DNA of 64,000 nucleotides from Vibrio sp. Of7-15 (GTDB taxonomy: Bacteria > Pseudomonadota > Gammaproteobacteria > Enterobacterales > Vibrionaceae). The notes beneath the pieces were generated by a model that saw only the letters and a program-made list of their open reading frames with translations, did not search any database and was not told the DNA's origin. Both the position numbers and the translations under genes were made by a program. This document shows positions 38,455 to 42,904 of this stretch, piece after piece. The stretch spans positions 1-64,000 of the forward strand of contig NZ_JAKRGH010000025.1 of NCBI RefSeq assembly GCF_022347565.1. The letters are read 5' to 3'. Positions within the stretch are counted from its first letter, which is position 1. Every line of letters begins with the position of its first letter.

Positions 38455-39456
38455 ATGTTGAAAATCGATAATTTGGCTTCGGAAATGGACTTCAAAGATC
38501 GTTATTTTACAGTATTAGACTCTCTACCAGATCATATTTTTGTTTTTTCTGAATCGGGCAGCTACGTTGATGTCTACGGCGGAGAAGAGAATGAAACGGG
38601 CTTTGATTGCAAATCCTTCATTGGTCGCTCGCTTTATGAAGTATCTCCCCCTGACATGGCAAAAAAGTTTCATGCTTATATTAGAGCAGCGCTAGAAAGC
38701 AATAAAATCCAAGTGATCAAATACAAATTTGATAAGCAAGAGATGATTGATTTGCCTGATCACGTCTCGACCCCTATGGAAATTTGGTTCGAAGGCATTA
38801 TTAAACCACTTACCCTTATAGAAAATAACGAAAGAACCGTTGTGTGGATGGCAAAGAACATCACGGAGCGTCATTACTTAGAGCAGCGCTTAAAAACACT
38901 TTCTGAGATAGATGAATTAACAGGGATTTACAATAGACGCTCATTCACCAGCTCTCTTTCAAAATCGTTAGAACGCTTCCACTCAGAGCAACGTTCTTTT
39001 TCCTTACTGATGATTGATATAGATAGATTTAAACGAATCAATGATTCTATCGGGCATTCATCTGGTGATGATGTGATTAACCATGTTGTCTCGATATTTC
39101 AGTCAGAATTAGCCCCAACACACTGTATTGGCCGGCTAGGGGGCGAAGAATTTTCGGTAATACTCGATGGCACCACACCATTAAACGCCCTATGTGTCGC
39201 CGAAAAAATCAGAGCAAAAATTGAAAAATCCCCCTGCAAAACAGGAGAGTATACAGTGCAAGCAACCGTCAGTATCGGCGTTACTGGTGTACTTAAAAAC
39301 GATGACGACATCAAAAATCTGTTATCCCGGGCGGATAAGGCCATGTACCATTCAAAAACTAGCGGAAGAAACCGAGTCAGCTTATATACAGAAGATATAG
39401 AGCGGAACAATAGACGCTCAACGGACGGAATACAAATATTAAACGACACAACTTAA
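38455..39456 (+). CDS. Diguanylate cyclase (GGDEF) with an N-terminal PAS-like sensor
   Basis: Active-site GGEEF within IGRLGGEEFSVIL, preceded by the RRSF I-site-like motif. Length is 333 aa. Confidence 0.85.
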   Translation: MLKIDNLASEMDFKDRYFTVLDSLPDHIFVFSESGSYVDVYGGEENETGFDCKSFIGRSLYEVSPPDMAKKFHAYIRAALESNKIQVIKYKFDKQEMIDLPDHVSTPMEIWFEGIIKPLTLIENNERTVVWMAKNITERHYLEQRLKTLSEIDELTGIYNRRSFTSSLSKSLERFHSEQRSFSLLMIDIDRFKRINDSIGHSSGDDVINHVVSIFQSELAPTHCIGRLGGEEFSVILDGTTPLNALCVAEKIRAKIEKSPCKTGEYTVQATVSIGVTGVLKNDDDIKNLLSRADKAMYHSKTSGRNRVSLYTEDIERNNRRSTDGIQILNDTT

Positions 39457-39506: not shown

Positions 39507-40676
39507 ATGGATTTAAGACACTGTTCGGGATTCACCTTACCACTCCAAAAAGGGCCATTTCAGAATAATGGAGCAACGCCTTGGTATTGCGAACTAGGGA
39601 TTGGCTCTCCTGCGCAAAAACTCAAAATGTGCTTTGACACTGGCAGTAACTTCAACTGGGTAACATCCAATCTCTGCTCAGATGATGGCTGCAAGCATTA
39701 TGCAAATGCTCGCTTTAATTTAAATTTGTCTTCAACGTTTGAATGGATAAACCAAGACGTACAATCGGTCAATTTTGGGCCATGGGGCACAATGCAAGTA
39801 GAAACAGGAAGAGATCGTTTATGCCTCCCCTACCATCACGGCCCCTCAATTGTTAGTGATCTCTTTTTAGCCTCTGAATATTCTGGCACTCAGTTTGAAG
39901 AACTCGACTGGGATGGTGGGATCGGCCTGCCAAGCTCTCAAGACATAACAGCGATTGCTCCAAGTGCTTCTTATCCTTTTAGGGGGCACCACACGAATAC
40001 CAATTCAAATGAAGACTTTAATTTTTTCTTAACACTACTAAAAATGGGGCTGGTAGGCACTTCTACCCCTTATATTTCAGTACAAACAGAGCCACTGTGC
40101 GATCACCCAACAGGCTATATTGGGTTTGGCACATTGGATAGGTCTTACGCCTCTTCTCTTGAATATTTGTTTCTGCCTTGGTCGTGTTACCAACAAGAGG
40201 CCAGTTATTTATGGACAACAGCCAACACAACCGTAAAAGTCAATGGCAACACCATTGGCACCAACATGTTTTTTGCCCTAGATACTGGTTCATCGCAATT
40301 TAAAGGGGACAACTCAGTGTTAACCCAAGTGTATAACTTAACAAAAAACGATGGTCCCCCTGTCTCTATTATGCTCTCAGATGAAAATGGCATTGAATAT
40401 GGTGAATTAAACATCACTAGAGATATATACCAATGCAAAATAGAGGCAGGAGAGAAAAAAGGCAAAGTAGTTTCACAATTCCAAGGACTACCTGGGGCAG
40501 ACGACATGCTACTGGTTGGCTCTGTGTTAATGGATCACCTTTACACTGTGTACGAATATGAAGTGATCTCCAACAATGATATTCGCCCTAAAGGCGTCTG
40601 GATTTTCAATAAGCCGAATGGCCCCAAAATTATAAAAAACAGACAAACTTCCACTGCCTCATTATTCTCTCGTTAA
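39507..40676 (+). CDS. Pepsin-like (family A1) aspartic protease homologue, no signal peptide
   Basis: Two catalytic DTGS motifs arranged as in bilobal pepsins: YCELGIGSPAQKLKMCFDTGSNFNWV in the first lobe (compare pepsin Y.G.I.IGTPPQ.F.V.FDTGSS..WV) and FFALDTGSSQF in the second. Length is 389 aa, with a hydrophilic N-terminus. Confidence 0.8.
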   Translation: MDLRHCSGFTLPLQKGPFQNNGATPWYCELGIGSPAQKLKMCFDTGSNFNWVTSNLCSDDGCKHYANARFNLNLSSTFEWINQDVQSVNFGPWGTMQVETGRDRLCLPYHHGPSIVSDLFLASEYSGTQFEELDWDGGIGLPSSQDITAIAPSASYPFRGHHTNTNSNEDFNFFLTLLKMGLVGTSTPYISVQTEPLCDHPTGYIGFGTLDRSYASSLEYLFLPWSCYQQEASYLWTTANTTVKVNGNTIGTNMFFALDTGSSQFKGDNSVLTQVYNLTKNDGPPVSIMLSDENGIEYGELNITRDIYQCKIEAGEKKGKVVSQFQGLPGADDMLLVGSVLMDHLYTVYEYEVISNNDIRPKGVWIFNKPNGPKIIKNRQTSTASLFSR

Positions 40677-40691
40677 AGGATACATCGATTC

Positions 40692-41465
40692 ATGAACACG
40701 TGTTTATCTGGAATCTGGACCAACTCTTTCGGCTCCAAAATGTCTCTCATCGTCGATGGTACTCAAATCATTGGTACCTATTCTTCTCATACTGGATCGA
40801 CTGGGGAATACCGCCTAATCGGTCATTGCTCGAAACTGAGTCCATCTGAGCAGTTAGGCCAAAGCATCGCTATCTCTATTTACTGGAAGAATATTCACGA
40901 TGGGGTTAAAGATGAAAGCTGGCATTGGTCTGGCACGATGTGTGGCCAACTACAACTAGATGGCACCATGACCTTAACCAACGCCATTGTGGTGTCAGTC
41001 GCATTTGAGCATTATCAGAAAGGAAATTACATTGATGAACTGGTATTTAGTAAAAATGGTCAACTCAGCCAACCCGAGATGGATGCGATCCACCAGCACT
41101 TCACGCTAAAAGAACCAACTTTGCCGTCTTATCCATTAGTCGGAAAATGGCAAAATAACACTCTCACGCTCGATATTAATCAGCCCCATCCCATCTCCGG
41201 CTACACACAAGCACACTTAATTACACCAGGTATCGAGCTCACCCTTTCTGGCTTTATCGATGTAGATGCACACAAAAATATGGCACAAAGTTTATCACTG
41301 TCAGGCTATAACCCCATTACAGAAGAAACCATATCCATGTCAGGTATGCTTGATTACAGCAGCCATCATTTAACCTTATATTCTTGGTCAGCACAACCAA
41401 CGTCACCTGAAGACAGCTTCATGCAAACACAAATGAGGGCCCTTCAGTTTGAAAAGAGCGGATAA
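40692..41465 (+). CDS. Tandem avidin/streptavidin-like domain protein, no signal peptide
   Basis: Residues 5-125 align with the streptavidin core: GIWTNSFGSKMSL..GTYSSHTGSTGEYRLIG...ISIYWKN...WHWSGT against GTWYNQLGSTFIV..GTYESAVGNAESRYVLTG...WTVAWKN...TTWSGQ. Several biotin-contact positions (Asn, Ser, Tyr, Ser, Trp, Trp) are retained. A second, weaker repeat (LVGKWQNNTLTL...ISGYTQ...LTLYSWSA) follows. It is 16 bp downstream of the A1 protease gene. Confidence 0.7.
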   Translation: MNTCLSGIWTNSFGSKMSLIVDGTQIIGTYSSHTGSTGEYRLIGHCSKLSPSEQLGQSIAISIYWKNIHDGVKDESWHWSGTMCGQLQLDGTMTLTNAIVVSVAFEHYQKGNYIDELVFSKNGQLSQPEMDAIHQHFTLKEPTLPSYPLVGKWQNNTLTLDINQPHPISGYTQAHLITPGIELTLSGFIDVDAHKNMAQSLSLSGYNPITEETISMSGMLDYSSHHLTLYSWSAQPTSPEDSFMQTQMRALQFEKSG

Positions 41466-41866
41466 AGAGGCTTTTCTTTAAGTAAGTTAGTTAATGGCAA
41501 AAACAGTGGTTCAGGTAGGTGGTTCACATCGCACCATTGCCACTGTTTACATTTATCGATTTCTTTTACTTCAGGCTCACCTGAATGGCACTCAGCAGCA
41601 ACAAACAGAGTAATATAATGCTTGCCTTCTTCTTTGAAAATGTCATTCGTAAAACTAAGCTTGGTTACGGATTCAATGGCTAACCCCGTTTCTTCAAAAA
41701 CCTCACGTTGAGCGCATTTCTCTATGCTCTCACCAACTTCCAAATGCCCACCCGGAGTAGCCCACGTGTTTGCACCATGAGAGCCAATTCGCTCTCCCAA
41801 TAAGATTCGATTATTCCTGATAATAATACACCTACCCCAACTCGAACTTCTTTCGTCATCGTTTAC
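41444..41866 (-). CDS. NUDIX hydrolase, N-terminus apparently frameshifted
   Basis: Nudix box GGHLEVGESIEKCAQREVFEETGL. The ORF as listed starts at Met 41800 inside the fold. A canonical N-terminus (MTKEVRVGVGVLL…) exists from ATG 41866 in another frame, and the two frames meet at a TTATTATTAT run. Confidence 0.6.
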   Translation of the reverse strand, partial: VNDDERSSSWGRCIIIRNNRILLGERIGSHGANTWATPGGHLEVGESIEKCAQREVFEETGLAIESVTKLSFTNDIFKEEGKHYITLFVAAECHSGEPEVKEIDKCKQWQWCDVNHLPEPLFLPLTNLLKEKPLYPLFSN

Positions 41867-41888: not shown

Positions 41889-42224
41889 CTACCAAACCAG
41901 CACTTTAAAAATACACAAAATGAGACTCACCGATATCAGCCCTATCCAGCCTAATATTTGGGTCACTTTTTCAGGTGAGGCCGGATTAAAATGAGGGAAC
42001 AATATCGCCCCGAAAGAAACTAAAGGAACATATTCATAAAGCTGGCCTGTCCTCACCGAGGTTCCATTTAATTGAGAAGGTAAAAATAAATAGACAACGA
42101 TATACAGCGCCATAAATACCATGGCACAATAGATTTGCCGTTCGACAAACTCACCGCGATTGACGTAAAAAAAGCACAGAGCTAAGCCCAGTGCCACTCC
42201 TATCAAAACCATAAAGGCCCACAC
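41889..42224 (-). CDS. Hypothetical small membrane protein
   Basis: Three hydrophobic helices on a 111-aa protein. Confidence 0.4.
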   Translation of the reverse strand: MWAFMVLIGVALGLALCFFYVNRGEFVERQIYCAMVFMALYIVVYLFLPSQLNGTSVRTGQLYEYVPLVSFGAILFPHFNPASPEKVTQILGWIGLISVSLILCIFKVLVW

Positions 42225-42277: not shown

Positions 42278-42904
42278 TTAGCCATCACTCTTAAGCTGTT
42301 TATTAGCCGCAGATCTTACACGGAGCTCAGAGCCAAACAAAATTAGCGCCCCCAAGCTAAAACTAAGTACATGCCCGAGCTTAGGAAGGTGATACTCACT
42401 AAAAAACACATCTAAAGAAAAGGCAGGCAAAATGGTTAAGACTAAGACAAAAAACGCAATACGCCCGACCACCTCCCCTTTCAAGAATTTAACTAACCCA
42501 GCAGCAGCTAAACCTAACACAGCCTGAGATGCACCTGTACCCAAATTCCAAGGCTCAGGGACTGTAAACGTACTTGCGAATGTACCAATGGAACCCGCTA
42601 CAAACCAAATTGAAAGAAAGGTCATCGATCCAATTTTACATTCAAACAAAAAACCAAGAGCCACGAGAGACAAAACATTGTAAATCATATGAGGTTGCTT
42701 CACATGAATTAACTGGGAAGCAACCAGCCTCCAAAGTTCATAGTTCAAAAGATGCTTAAACGTATAGCCGCCATATGGCTCTAGCTCAGGCACTTTGATT
42801 TGTCCAAATAGCGAACCTGATATCTGATAATGAACCACTAATGACACTATCACCGTCGCTAATGCCAATAAAATAGTCACATATGGTAGACATCTGGATA
42901 CCAC
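42278..42904 (-). CDS. Rhomboid-family intramembrane serine protease, rhombosortase candidate
   Basis: Rhomboid TM2 motif WRLVASQLIHVKQPHMIYNVLSL (WR…H…H..N), a TM4 Ser motif GASQAVLGL (GxSx), and the TM6 His in GHVLSFSLGAL. Its small size (208 aa) is typical of rhombosortase. Two GlyGly-CTERM substrates are encoded about 10 kb upstream. Confidence 0.6.
   Translation of the reverse strand: MVSRCLPYVTILLALATVIVSLVVHYQISGSLFGQIKVPELEPYGGYTFKHLLNYELWRLVASQLIHVKQPHMIYNVLSLVALGFLFECKIGSMTFLSIWFVAGSIGTFASTFTVPEPWNLGTGASQAVLGLAAAGLVKFLKGEVVGRIAFFVLVLTILPAFSLDVFFSEYHLPKLGHVLSFSLGALILFGSELRVRSAANKQLKSDG

What the first reader, a model, noticed from the sequence alone, without database searches (positions are those of the whole stretch)
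40692..41465. Candidate new avidin-family member with an internal duplication
The first approximately 120 aa thread onto the streptavidin beta-barrel and conserve several biotin-contact residues (Asn, Ser, Tyr, Ser, Trp, Trp equivalents). A second, weaker avidin-like repeat follows. Known avidins are single-domain and secreted; this one is double-domain with no leader peptide.
Basis: partly seen in the sequence, partly recalled or inferred. Interest (0 to 1): 0.65.

Follow-up and report, generated by a model that had tools for sequence, protein, structure and literature searches.

The report
Leaderless two-barrel avidin beside bacterial pepsin
The gene encodes an avidin-family protein built from two fused avidin barrels, only the first keeping a biotin-type pocket, made without a secretion signal and co-encoded with a bacterial pepsin-like protease; the protein family was catalogued in 2021, but its second barrel and its function are undescribed.

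Summary
ORF 40692-41465 (+), 257 aa, passes the Pfam Avidin threshold. It has no room for a leader peptide.

The N barrel keeps the streptavidin contacts N23, S27, Y43, S45, W79 and W92. They are 89-100% conserved in 159 family representatives. The C barrel has lost them all, but keeps an aromatic at the W120-equivalent position.

It is not a new family:
- NCBI already names this exact protein avidin/streptavidin family (Vibrio sp. Of7-15).
- It belongs to the "Extended" avidin clade of Laitinen et al. 2021, who found no domain in the extension and noted pepsin-avidin fusions.

That pairing is kept in 13 of 14 distinct loci, and about a quarter of the pepsin homologue clusters are natural fusions.

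Best reading: a monovalent pseudo-dimeric ligand-binding subunit of the bacterial pepsin, with biotin or a biotinyl group the likeliest ligand. Binding and role are untested.

The parts
40692..41465 (+). Whole ORF, 257 aa plus stop: leaderless tandem-barrel avidin-family protein, called avidin2 here.
   Evidence: ORF. Pfam Avidin above threshold. 100% identical to the NCBI 'avidin/streptavidin family protein' of Vibrio sp. Of7-15. AF2 pLDDT 87.3, pTM 0.87.
40704..41060 (+). N-terminal barrel, residues 5-123: canonical avidin barrel with a conserved biotin-type pocket (N11, S15, Y30, S32, T34-G35-S36 loop, W65, S76-W77-H78-W79, D115).
41061..41141 (+). Inter-barrel linker, residues 124-150, with a helix at 127-135. 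It is poorly conserved.
   Evidence: Its length of 27 residues is close to the 26-residue linker of engineered scdSav (PMC7411666).
41142..41459 (+). C-terminal barrel, residues 151-256: degenerate avidin-like barrel. All biotin-contact equivalents are lost. G151, W153, G187, D190, G218 and an aromatic at 243 are kept; residue 243 is the W120 equivalent by transitive alignment.
40676..40680 (+). Shine-Dalgarno-like AAGGA, 11 nt before the ATG. It overlaps the last base of the protease stop codon.
   Evidence: Read directly from the sequence.
39507..40676 (+). Upstream partner gene: leaderless pepsin-like (MEROPS A1) aspartic protease with both D-T-G-S catalytic motifs. Its stop lies 15 nt before the avidin2 ATG, in the same reading frame.
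   Evidence: Pfam Asp at 61 bits. Sequence. Adjacency is conserved. Natural fusions exist.
38455..39456 (+). PAS-GGDEF diguanylate cyclase, 50 nt upstream of the protease gene. It is the first gene of a three-gene module in the Vibrio-like clade.
   Evidence: Pfam and NCBIfam matches. Conserved upstream in L001 and L006-L009, and in V. cholerae L013, which lacks avidin2.

Best explanation
The protein is a natural single-chain pseudo-dimeric avidin that serves as the ligand-binding partner of a leaderless bacterial pepsin-like protease.

Shown or strongly supported:
- It has two homologous avidin barrels in one chain.
- In the model they are packed like the two streptavidin subunits that are linked in engineered single-chain dimeric streptavidin.
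- It has no signal peptide.
- It is co-encoded with, and in many bacteria fused to, an A1 protease.

Inferred:
- Only the N barrel binds a ligand. Its hydrogen-bonding residues for the biotin ureido ring and two pocket tryptophans are near-invariant across the family.
- The C barrel is a dead subunit kept for architecture. It may lend its conserved aromatic residue (F243, the W120 equivalent) as a lid over the N-barrel pocket. That would make the protein monovalent.
- The ligand is most likely biotin or a protein-bound biotinyl group.
- The module docks on the protease, as in the fusions. It then either brings biotin-bearing substrates to the protease or makes protease activity depend on the ligand.
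For: Fold and duplication:
- Pfam Avidin at 29.7 bits, above the 24-bit cut-off.
- AF2 model with pLDDT 87.3 and pTM 0.87, two 8-stranded barrels.
- Foldseek gives TM 0.75-0.79 to scdSav chains.
- hhalign of the N half against the C half gives E 2.3e-9.

Pocket:
- Conservation in 159 representatives: N11 99%, S15 98%, Y30 100%, S32 98%, W65 100%, W79 89%.
- These residues map to streptavidin N23, S27, Y43, S45, W79 and W92.
- The C barrel has none of them.
- The aromatic at 243 aligns to the W120 insertion point (combined).
- scdSav links the subunit pair whose pockets share an interface (PMC8341917).

Protease link:
- A pepsin homologue is adjacent in 13 of 14 distinct loci. It lies upstream in most and downstream in the Woeseiaceae loci L010 and L019.
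- 29 of the 120 best pepsin-homologue clusters are 630-680 aa pepsin-avidin2 fusions. Avidin2-pepsin fusions in the opposite order also exist.
- In the fusion model the inter-domain linker is ordered (pLDDT about 90) and pTM is 0.78.

Leaderless state:
- 116 of 126 stand-alone representatives have 12 or fewer residues before strand 1.
- Shewasin D, a bacterial pepsin homologue, is cytoplasmic (PMC4814920).
Against: - No binding data exist for any member of this clade (PMC8033661).
- The equivalents of the strand 7-8 contacts W108 and D128 are uncertain. The HMM alignment places L117, not D115, opposite D128.
- The sea-urchin fibropellin avidin-like domain does not bind biotin, according to the title of a work cited in the 2021 paper. 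The 2021 authors add that binding cannot be judged from contact residues alone.
- A tight cytoplasmic biotin binder should be harmful to its host. This rests on general knowledge.
- No biotin metabolism or transport gene was seen in the annotated neighbourhoods I examined.
- I could not inspect model coordinates or predicted aligned error. The lid role of F243 and the docking site on the protease are therefore inference only.
- Each partner can occur alone. V. cholerae has the protease without avidin2. L012 has avidin2 without the protease.
Confidence: 0.55

Rival explanations
1. It is a dedicated latency factor or inhibitor of the co-encoded protease. It would resemble staphostatins, which are beta-barrel proteins encoded next to staphopains, or a pro-segment substitute. 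It would act through protein-protein contacts and bind no small molecule.
For: - The operon and the fusions with a protease that lacks the usual pro-peptide (PMC2761423).
- The shewasin D authors suspected an unknown mechanism that keeps the cytoplasmic enzyme latent (PMC4814920).
Against: - The near-invariance of buried, ligand-type pocket residues is not explained by a surface inhibitor.
- Fusions occur at either end of the protease. Both pepsin termini lie in the sheet opposite the active-site cleft, which is general knowledge of the pepsin fold. That argues weakly against cleft blocking.
- V. cholerae keeps the protease without avidin2.
Confidence: 0.15
2. The N barrel binds a ligand other than biotin, and the protein is a sensor or carrier for it. 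One candidate is a cyclic ureide or lactam handled by the hydantoinase/caprolactamase-like enzymes encoded upstream in one clade. Another is a cyclic dinucleotide made by the neighbouring GGDEF cyclase.
For: - hyuA-hyuB genes, closest to caprolactamase but below the family cut-off, lie directly upstream of avidin2 in L002-L005, L010, L012 and L019. In L012 no protease is present.
- PAS-GGDEF is conserved upstream in the Vibrio-like clade.
Against: - The conserved residues are those that hold the biotin ureido ring in streptavidin.
- Avidins score higher than Cap15, which scores like generic 8-stranded barrels.
- GGDEF stays with the protease when avidin2 is absent. It is absent from the other clade.
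- hyuAB is absent from the window.
Confidence: 0.17
3. It is an ordinary biotin-sequestering, antibiotic-type avidin, released by lysis or by a non-classical route. The protease neighbour is incidental.
For: - This is the function proposed for bacterial avidins in general (PMC8033661).
- Signal-peptide-bearing relatives exist, for example P0243 from Ekhidna and P0260.
Against: - 116 of 126 stand-alone representatives are leaderless.
- Adjacency to the protease survives gene-order changes, and the two genes are repeatedly fused.
Confidence: 0.06
4. It is a decaying remnant of a broken pepsin-avidin fusion gene and is not expressed as a functional protein. The two ORFs are in one frame, separated by one TAA and five codons.
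For: - The ORFs share a frame and are collinear with natural fusions.
- In one Marinomonas genome an IS element splits the avidin2 gene.
Against: - The ORF is intact with its own AAGGA and ATG.
- All family-invariant residues are present.
- Split gene pairs with different junctions occur in many genera: an overlapping ATGA in L001 and a 49-nt gap in L002.
Confidence: 0.03

Closest known systems
'Extended' clade of putative bacterial avidins (Laitinen, Kuusela, Kukkurainen et al. 2021, BMC Ecol Evol 21:53, PMC8033661)
   Same: - Same family. The paper's ENTE_CALV sequence is a close relative of P0010, which is 50% identical to the window protein.
- WP_035480156.1 from Aliagarivorans marinus is family representative P0163.
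- Same ~150-residue C-terminal extension and the same link to A1 peptidases.
   Different: - The paper found no domain in the extension and modelled only one barrel. Here the extension is shown to be a second, degenerate avidin barrel.
- The paper reports fusions only. Here the usual state is a separate gene in an operon with a stand-alone pepsin homologue.
- The leaderless state was not discussed.
- Nothing in this clade has been tested experimentally.
Streptavidin and avidin (Pfam PF01382)
   Same: Eight-stranded up-and-down barrel. Equivalents of N23, S27, Y43, S45, W79 and W92 are conserved, as is a glycine-rich loop between strands 3 and 4.
   Different: - About 16-22% identity.
- Two barrels in one chain rather than a homotetramer.
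- One pocket per chain.
- No signal peptide.
- Strands 7-8 diverge, so the W108 and D128 equivalents are unclear.
- It is coupled to a protease.
Engineered single-chain dimeric streptavidin scdSav (PDB 6s4q, 6s50; Wu et al. 2019) and dual-chain avidin (2c4i)
   Same: - Linker length is similar, 27 against 26 residues.
- The monovalent scdSav variant also has one live and one dead site (PMC7411666).
   Different: - scdSav is man-made from two identical barrels.
- The window protein is natural, its halves have diverged strongly, and the asymmetry is ancient and conserved.
Bacterial pepsin homologues shewasin A and D (Rawlings and Bateman 2009, PMC2761423; Leal et al. 2016, PMC4814920)
   Same: The upstream gene belongs to this group. 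It is a leaderless A1 peptidase without a pro-segment, from marine gamma-proteobacteria.
   Different: - Those papers never mention an avidin-like partner.
- I could not check whether the Shewanella loci carry one.
Natural dimeric avidins (rhizavidin, shwanavidin, hoefavidin)
   Different: They are secreted homodimers with two live sites and separate chains. They have no protease link.
Staphostatin-staphopain pairs (functional analogy only)
   Same: A small beta-barrel protein is encoded next to a protease and stays in the cytoplasm. This rests on general knowledge.
   Different: No detectable structural or sequence relationship was found here. The staphostatin barrel has no ligand pocket.

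Membership tests
Avidin/streptavidin family (Pfam PF01382) | Match to the family HMM above the curated threshold | tested here: met
   29.7 bits against a 24-bit cut-off, residues 5-86. The family profile finds streptavidin and tamavidin chains in the PDB at E 1.6e-7 to 1e-5.
Avidin/streptavidin family (Pfam PF01382) | Eight-stranded antiparallel up-and-down beta-barrel | tested here: met
   [not shown]
Avidin/streptavidin family (Pfam PF01382) | Biotin contacts of strands 1-6: N23, S27, Y43, S45, W79, W92 | tested here: met
   The equivalents are N11, S15, Y30, S32, W65 and W79. They are 89-100% conserved in 159 representatives. This applies to the N barrel only; the C barrel has none of them.
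Avidin/streptavidin family (Pfam PF01382) | Biotin contacts of strands 6-8: S88, T90, W108, D128 | tested here: inconclusive
   - The alignment is unreliable beyond residue 87.
- The conserved S76-W77-H78-W79 segment differs from streptavidin S88-A-T-T-W92.
- I99 aligns to W108, D115 to G126 and L117 to D128.
- D115 faces the same way as D128 would, two residues earlier.
Avidin/streptavidin family (Pfam PF01382) | Aromatic lid (W120) lent by the neighbouring subunit | tested here: inconclusive
   - C-barrel F243 is aromatic in 99% of representatives.
- It sits at the W120 insertion point by transitive alignment.
- The barrel pair matches the scdSav pair, whose pockets share an interface.
- I could not read model coordinates, so contact is not shown.
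Avidin/streptavidin family (Pfam PF01382) | High-affinity biotin binding | not testable with these tools
   This needs recombinant protein and a binding assay. No member of the clade has been tested (PMC8033661).
Avidin/streptavidin family (Pfam PF01382) | Secretion signal (typical of the family, not strictly defining) | tested here: not met
   Strand 1 starts at residue 7 and an in-frame stop lies 18 nt upstream. 116 of 126 stand-alone relatives are also leaderless.
'Extended' avidin clade (Laitinen et al. 2021) | Avidin domain followed by a conserved C-terminal extension of about 150 residues | tested here: met
   Residues 124-257.
'Extended' avidin clade (Laitinen et al. 2021) | Full-length sequence relationship to listed clade members | tested here: met
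   - 50% identity over 98% of the length to P0010, the Enterovibrio protein.
- The paper's ENTE_CALV sequence differs from P0010 at only a few positions.
- P0163 is WP_035480156.1, which the paper lists.
'Extended' avidin clade (Laitinen et al. 2021) | Association with an A1 aspartic peptidase | tested here: met
   Here the peptidase is the adjacent gene 39507-40676 rather than a fusion partner. Fusions occur in relatives.
Single-chain tandem avidin (engineered scdSav type) | Two avidin barrels in one chain, packed like a streptavidin subunit pair | tested here: met
   [not shown]
Beta-barrel protease inhibitors (staphostatin, Inh/APRin type) | Closest structural neighbours are inhibitor barrels | tested here: not met
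   [not shown]
Beta-barrel protease inhibitors (staphostatin, Inh/APRin type) | Inhibits the co-encoded protease | not testable with these tools
   This needs an enzyme assay.

The most novel reading that the evidence does not exclude
The pair is a biotin-directed proteolysis system. A naturally monovalent single-chain avidin recognises the biotinyl group of carboxylase carrier proteins, or of biotinyl-peptides, and hands them to a pepsin-like protease. That would give bacteria a route for turnover, salvage or breakdown of protein-bound biotin.

In the Woeseiaceae-type loci the ATP-dependent hydantoinase/lactamase-like HyuAB and an M24 peptidase would carry that route further. HyuAB might even open the ureido ring.

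A by-product would be a ready-made natural monovalent single-chain avidin scaffold for biotechnology.
Probability: 0.12. Interest if true: 0.85.

Novelty: new member of a known kind. Interest (0 to 1): 0.5.

Why it matters
Three things would follow if the inferences hold.

1. Engineers spent two decades building monovalent and single-chain avidins (monovalent streptavidin, dual-chain avidin, scdSav). This family appears to be nature's own version, with one live and one dead barrel in a single chain. If it binds biotin, it would be a useful scaffold.

2. The function and control of the cytoplasmic bacterial pepsin homologues (shewasins) are unknown. The shewasin D authors suspected an unidentified latency mechanism. 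A conserved, often fused partner gives a concrete, testable lead.

3. A leaderless avidin contradicts the usual view of avidins as secreted biotin-sequestering antibiotics. It raises the question of what a biotin-type pocket does inside a cell.

Against this, the family and its protease fusions were already catalogued in 2021, and everything beyond architecture and gene linkage is untested.

Tried and rejected
- The genome scan with the 18-sequence alignment failed because no stretch was conserved enough. I repeated it with the 12 closest sequences and got 7 loci.
- The metagenome scan added only 3 loci.
- The AlphaFold-database fold library was not available. I therefore saw no annotated predicted structures of relatives.
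- The primary scdSav paper (PMC6805045) is not held. Which streptavidin subunit pair scdSav links was taken from two reviews.
- PADLOC defence models: nothing for the GGDEF or protease proteins, and one weak match for avidin2 (PDC-S15, E 0.005), which I treat as noise. I found no support for an anti-phage system.
- NCBIfam has no model for the protease or for avidin2.
- A 5032-aa protein (P0228) appeared to carry 17 copies of the C barrel. Each stretch scores only 5-15 bits inside cadherin-like repeats of a giant adhesin-like protein. I rejected it as a composition and repeat artefact.
- The promoter and terminator scan found fewer promoter-like sites than the shuffles and only slightly more terminator-like sites (5 against a mean of 3.0), with no clear signal between the three genes. 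It neither proves nor refutes an operon.
- I could not obtain model coordinates or predicted aligned error. The pocket geometry, the F243 lid contact and the docking surface on the protease could not be examined.
- I could not check the Shewanella (shewasin A and D) loci for an avidin2 gene.

Full report
**1. The observation**

The window holds an ORF at exactly 40692..41465 on the + strand, 257 aa with an ATG start. An AAGGA lies 11 nt upstream of the ATG.

Pfam's Avidin model PF01382 matches residues 5-86 at 29.7 bits, above the 24-bit gathering score. The single sequence finds tamavidin 2 in the PDB only weakly, at E 0.022. A profile of the family finds tamavidin and many streptavidin chains at E 1.6e-7 to 1e-5.

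That alignment gives these equivalences with streptavidin:

| Window protein | Streptavidin |
|---|---|
| G7 | G19 |
| W9 | W21 |
| N11 | N23 |
| S15 | S27 |
| Y30 | Y43 |
| S32 | S45 |
| T34-G35-S36 | V47-G48-N49 |
| Y40 | Y54 |
| W65 | W79 |
| W79 | W92 |

Strand 1 begins at residue 7. The codon 18 nt upstream, in the same frame, is the TAA that ends the preceding gene. A leader peptide therefore cannot be encoded.

**2. The second repeat is a real duplication**

With only the 18 closest sequences, a profile comparison of the two halves was weak (P 0.0024) but in register.

I then aligned 159 full-length family representatives to the family model. They came from a search of 1.84 billion cluster representatives, which found 281 proteins at E 1e-3 or better and 94 at 1e-30 or better. 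Residues 1-124 against 146-256 now gave probability 96.2% and E 2.3e-9 over 105 columns covering the whole barrel. A reversed control gave P 0.37.

AlphaFold2 on the 18-sequence alignment gave a confident model, with mean pLDDT 87.3 and pTM 0.87. It has eight strands in residues 7-123, a linker with a helix at 127-135, and eight more strands in 151-255.

Structure searches with that model:
- Foldseek agreed. TM was 0.75-0.79 to four scdSav chains and about 0.37 (query-normalised) to single streptavidins.

Both barrels, and their mutual packing, therefore resemble a streptavidin subunit pair.

**3. The two barrels are not equivalent**

Conservation of the N-barrel pocket residues across the 159 representatives:

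| Residue | Conservation |
|---|---|
| W9 | 99% |
| N11 | 99% |
| S15 | 98% |
| Y30 | 100% |
| S32 | 98% |
| T34 | 94% |
| G35 | 98% |
| W65 | 100% |
| S76 | 85% |
| W77 | 86% |
| W79 | 89% |
| D115 | 79%, plus 16% E |

In the half-to-half alignment the C barrel has unrelated residues or gaps at every one of these positions. It keeps mainly glycines (G151, G170, G187, G218), W153 and D190. It also keeps an aromatic at position 243, which is Y in 78%, F in 14% and W in 6% of representatives.

Streptavidin W120 is the tryptophan one subunit lends to its neighbour's biotin site. It is an insertion between family-profile positions 109 and 110. F243 is an insertion at the same place relative to the N barrel. 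By transitive alignment F243 is therefore the W120 equivalent, and the N barrel lacks one.

According to a review figure legend, scdSav links the two units whose biotin pockets lie at a shared interface (PMC8341917; also PMC7411666).

From this I infer that the C barrel is a dead partner that may cap the single live pocket of the N barrel. I could not read coordinates, so this is not shown.

The equivalents of the strand 7-8 contacts W108 and D128 are uncertain. The HMM alignment puts I99 opposite W108 and L117 opposite D128, with D115 two residues earlier on the same face.

**4. Genomic setting**

The gene upstream, 39507..40676 (+), is a pepsin-like A1 aspartic protease. It scores 61 bits on Pfam Asp and has both D-T-G-S motifs. 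It has no signal peptide and no pro-segment.

Its stop codon is 15 nt before the avidin ATG, in the same frame. A PAS-GGDEF diguanylate cyclase (38455..39456) lies 50 nt further upstream. A consensus scan showed no clear promoter or terminator between the three genes.

The pairing is conserved:
- Among 14 distinct loci that carry the two-barrel gene, 13 have a pepsin homologue directly adjacent.
- The 14 loci are the window, Vibrio sp. DW001, Vibrio sp. F74, Motilimonas, Psychromonas, Enterovibrio, Celerinatantimonas, Marinomonas, two Woeseiaceae MAGs and four metagenome loci.
- In two Woeseiaceae-type loci (L010, L019) the order is reversed.
- One Woeseiaceae MAG (L012) lacks the protease.
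- One of the 14, Marinomonas, was found through the protease, so it is not an independent test.

Searching with the protease showed that 29 of the 120 best homologue clusters are 630-680 aa fusions. They have the protease at the N terminus and the two-barrel module at the C terminus. Examples come from V. tapetis, V. vulnificus, Pseudomonas cedrina and P. nabeulensis. Fusions in the opposite order also exist (P0225, P0251).

The window's two ORFs are collinear with such fusions and differ only by one stop codon and five codons.

Each partner can also occur alone. V. cholerae keeps PAS-GGDEF plus the protease without the avidin gene.

**5. Breadth of the family**

The 159 full-length representatives divide as follows:

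| Type | Count |
|---|---|
| Stand-alone, 12 or fewer residues before strand 1 | 116 |
| Stand-alone with an N-terminal extension | 10 |
| Fusion with the protease at the N terminus | 31 |
| Fusion with the protease at the C terminus | 2 |

Six of the ten extensions look like signal peptides or a lipoprotein signal. One of these proteins is from Ekhidna, a member of the Bacteroidota.

Some fusions also carry signal peptides, and one relative carries a type IX secretion tail. The module is thus mostly, but not only, cytoplasmic.

**6. Prior knowledge**

- The identical protein is in NCBI as 'avidin/streptavidin family protein [Vibrio sp. Of7-15]'.
- Laitinen et al. 2021 (PMC8033661) surveyed bacterial avidins. 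They defined an 'Extended' clade with a C-terminal extension of about 150 residues. The members include Enterovibrio calviensis, Marinomonas species and Aliagarivorans marinus.
- They state that InterPro and CDD found no domain in the extension. They reported A1-peptidase fusions in a few species and judged the clade to 'look potent biotin binders', without experiments.
- Their supplementary ENTE_CALV sequence is a close relative of P0010, the 50%-identical homologue. Their Aliagarivorans accession is my representative P0163. The window protein is therefore a member of that clade.
- The papers on bacterial pepsin homologues never mention avidin or neighbouring genes (Rawlings and Bateman 2009, PMC2761423; shewasin D, PMC4814920). 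The shewasin D paper shows cytoplasmic localisation and speculates about an unknown way of keeping the enzyme latent.
- A search for later work on avidin together with aspartic peptidase found nothing further.

**7. How it most likely works**

Shown:
- a tandem avidin fold
- a true duplication
- strongly asymmetric conservation of the two barrels
- no leader peptide
- tight genomic coupling to, and frequent fusion with, an A1 protease.

Inferred:
- The N barrel binds one ligand per chain in the canonical pocket. The ligand is most likely biotin or a biotinyl group, because the conserved residues are those that hold the ureido ring in streptavidin.
- The C barrel replaces the second subunit of a dimer.
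- The module docks on the protease. In the fusion model the connecting segment is ordered, with pLDDT about 90.
- The module either recruits biotin-bearing substrates or gates protease activity.

I put the architecture and the protease partnership at about 0.85-0.9, biotin-type binding at about 0.5, and any particular role at no more than 0.25.

**8. Rivals**

- A different ligand (0.17) is suggested by two contexts. One is hyuA-hyuB, a caprolactamase-like ATP-dependent ring-opening enzyme pair, directly upstream in the Woeseiaceae-type loci; one locus also has an M24 peptidase. The other is the GGDEF gene in the Vibrio-type loci.
- Against the GGDEF idea, that gene stays with the protease when the avidin gene is absent. 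The Cap15 cyclic-dinucleotide receptor scores no better than generic barrels.
- A classical secreted biotin-sequestering avidin (0.06) and a decaying fusion remnant (0.03) are poorly supported.

**9. Verdict**

The parts I did not find in the searched literature are these:
- the extension is a degenerate second avidin barrel forming a natural single-chain, probably monovalent, pseudo-dimer
- the family is mainly leaderless
- its usual state is an operon with a stand-alone pepsin homologue.

All functional statements remain predictions. The models come from shallow alignments of 18 and 29 sequences, and I could not inspect their coordinates.

Noticed in passing
window 39507-40676 (+) and 40692-41465 (+): The pepsin-like protease ORF and the avidin ORF are in the same reading frame, separated only by TAA and five codons. 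They are collinear with natural 630-680 aa fusions in V. vulnificus, V. tapetis and Pseudomonas. This looks like a recent fission, or a fusion one mutation away. Stop-codon read-through would give a protein of about 652 aa.
   Followed up: partly
window 38455-39456 (+); L001, L006-L009, L013: A PAS-GGDEF diguanylate cyclase lies directly upstream of the bacterial pepsin gene in Vibrio, Enterovibrio, Psychromonas and Motilimonas. It is also there in V. cholerae, where the avidin gene is missing. The flanking genes differ between genomes, so the module seems to move as a unit.
   Followed up: partly
L002-L005, L010, L012, L019: In Woeseiaceae-type genomes the two-barrel avidin gene follows hyuA-hyuB, an ATP-dependent hydantoinase/caprolactamase-like pair that scores below the family cut-off. 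In L002 an M24 peptidase or creatinase-like gene sits between them. In L012 no protease gene is present at all. This suggests a link to cyclic amide or ureide metabolism.
   Followed up: partly
L015 5225-7296: In one Marinomonas genome the avidin gene downstream of the pepsin homologue is split by an IS element. A DDE transposase lies on the opposite strand. The two gene fragments match family-profile positions 2-183 and 185-257.
   Followed up: yes
window about 39950-40030 (protease residues about 150-175); P0075 residues 151-173: The bacterial pepsin homologues of the Vibrio type carry an insertion that the model leaves disordered (pLDDT below 50). It holds a short recurring R-G-H/M-H motif: PFRGHH in the window, ALRGHH in V. 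tapetis, NYRGMH in V. vulnificus. The motif is absent from the Pseudomonas fusions. Its role is unknown.
   Followed up: no
window 41444-41800 (-): A NUDIX hydrolase gene converges on the avidin gene and overlaps its last 22 nt. No terminator separates the two.
   Followed up: no
window 42278-42904 (-): A rhomboid-family intramembrane protease gene lies about 800 nt beyond the end of the avidin ORF, after a small membrane-protein ORF (41889-42224). It is not conserved next to the module in other genomes.
   Followed up: no
P0228 (5032 aa, metagenomic): A giant repeat protein scores E 5e-31 against the family profile through 17 weak stretches of 5-15 bits each, all against the C-barrel half. 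The repeats look cadherin-like and the C terminus autotransporter-like. This is probably an artefact of summed repeat scores.
   Followed up: yes
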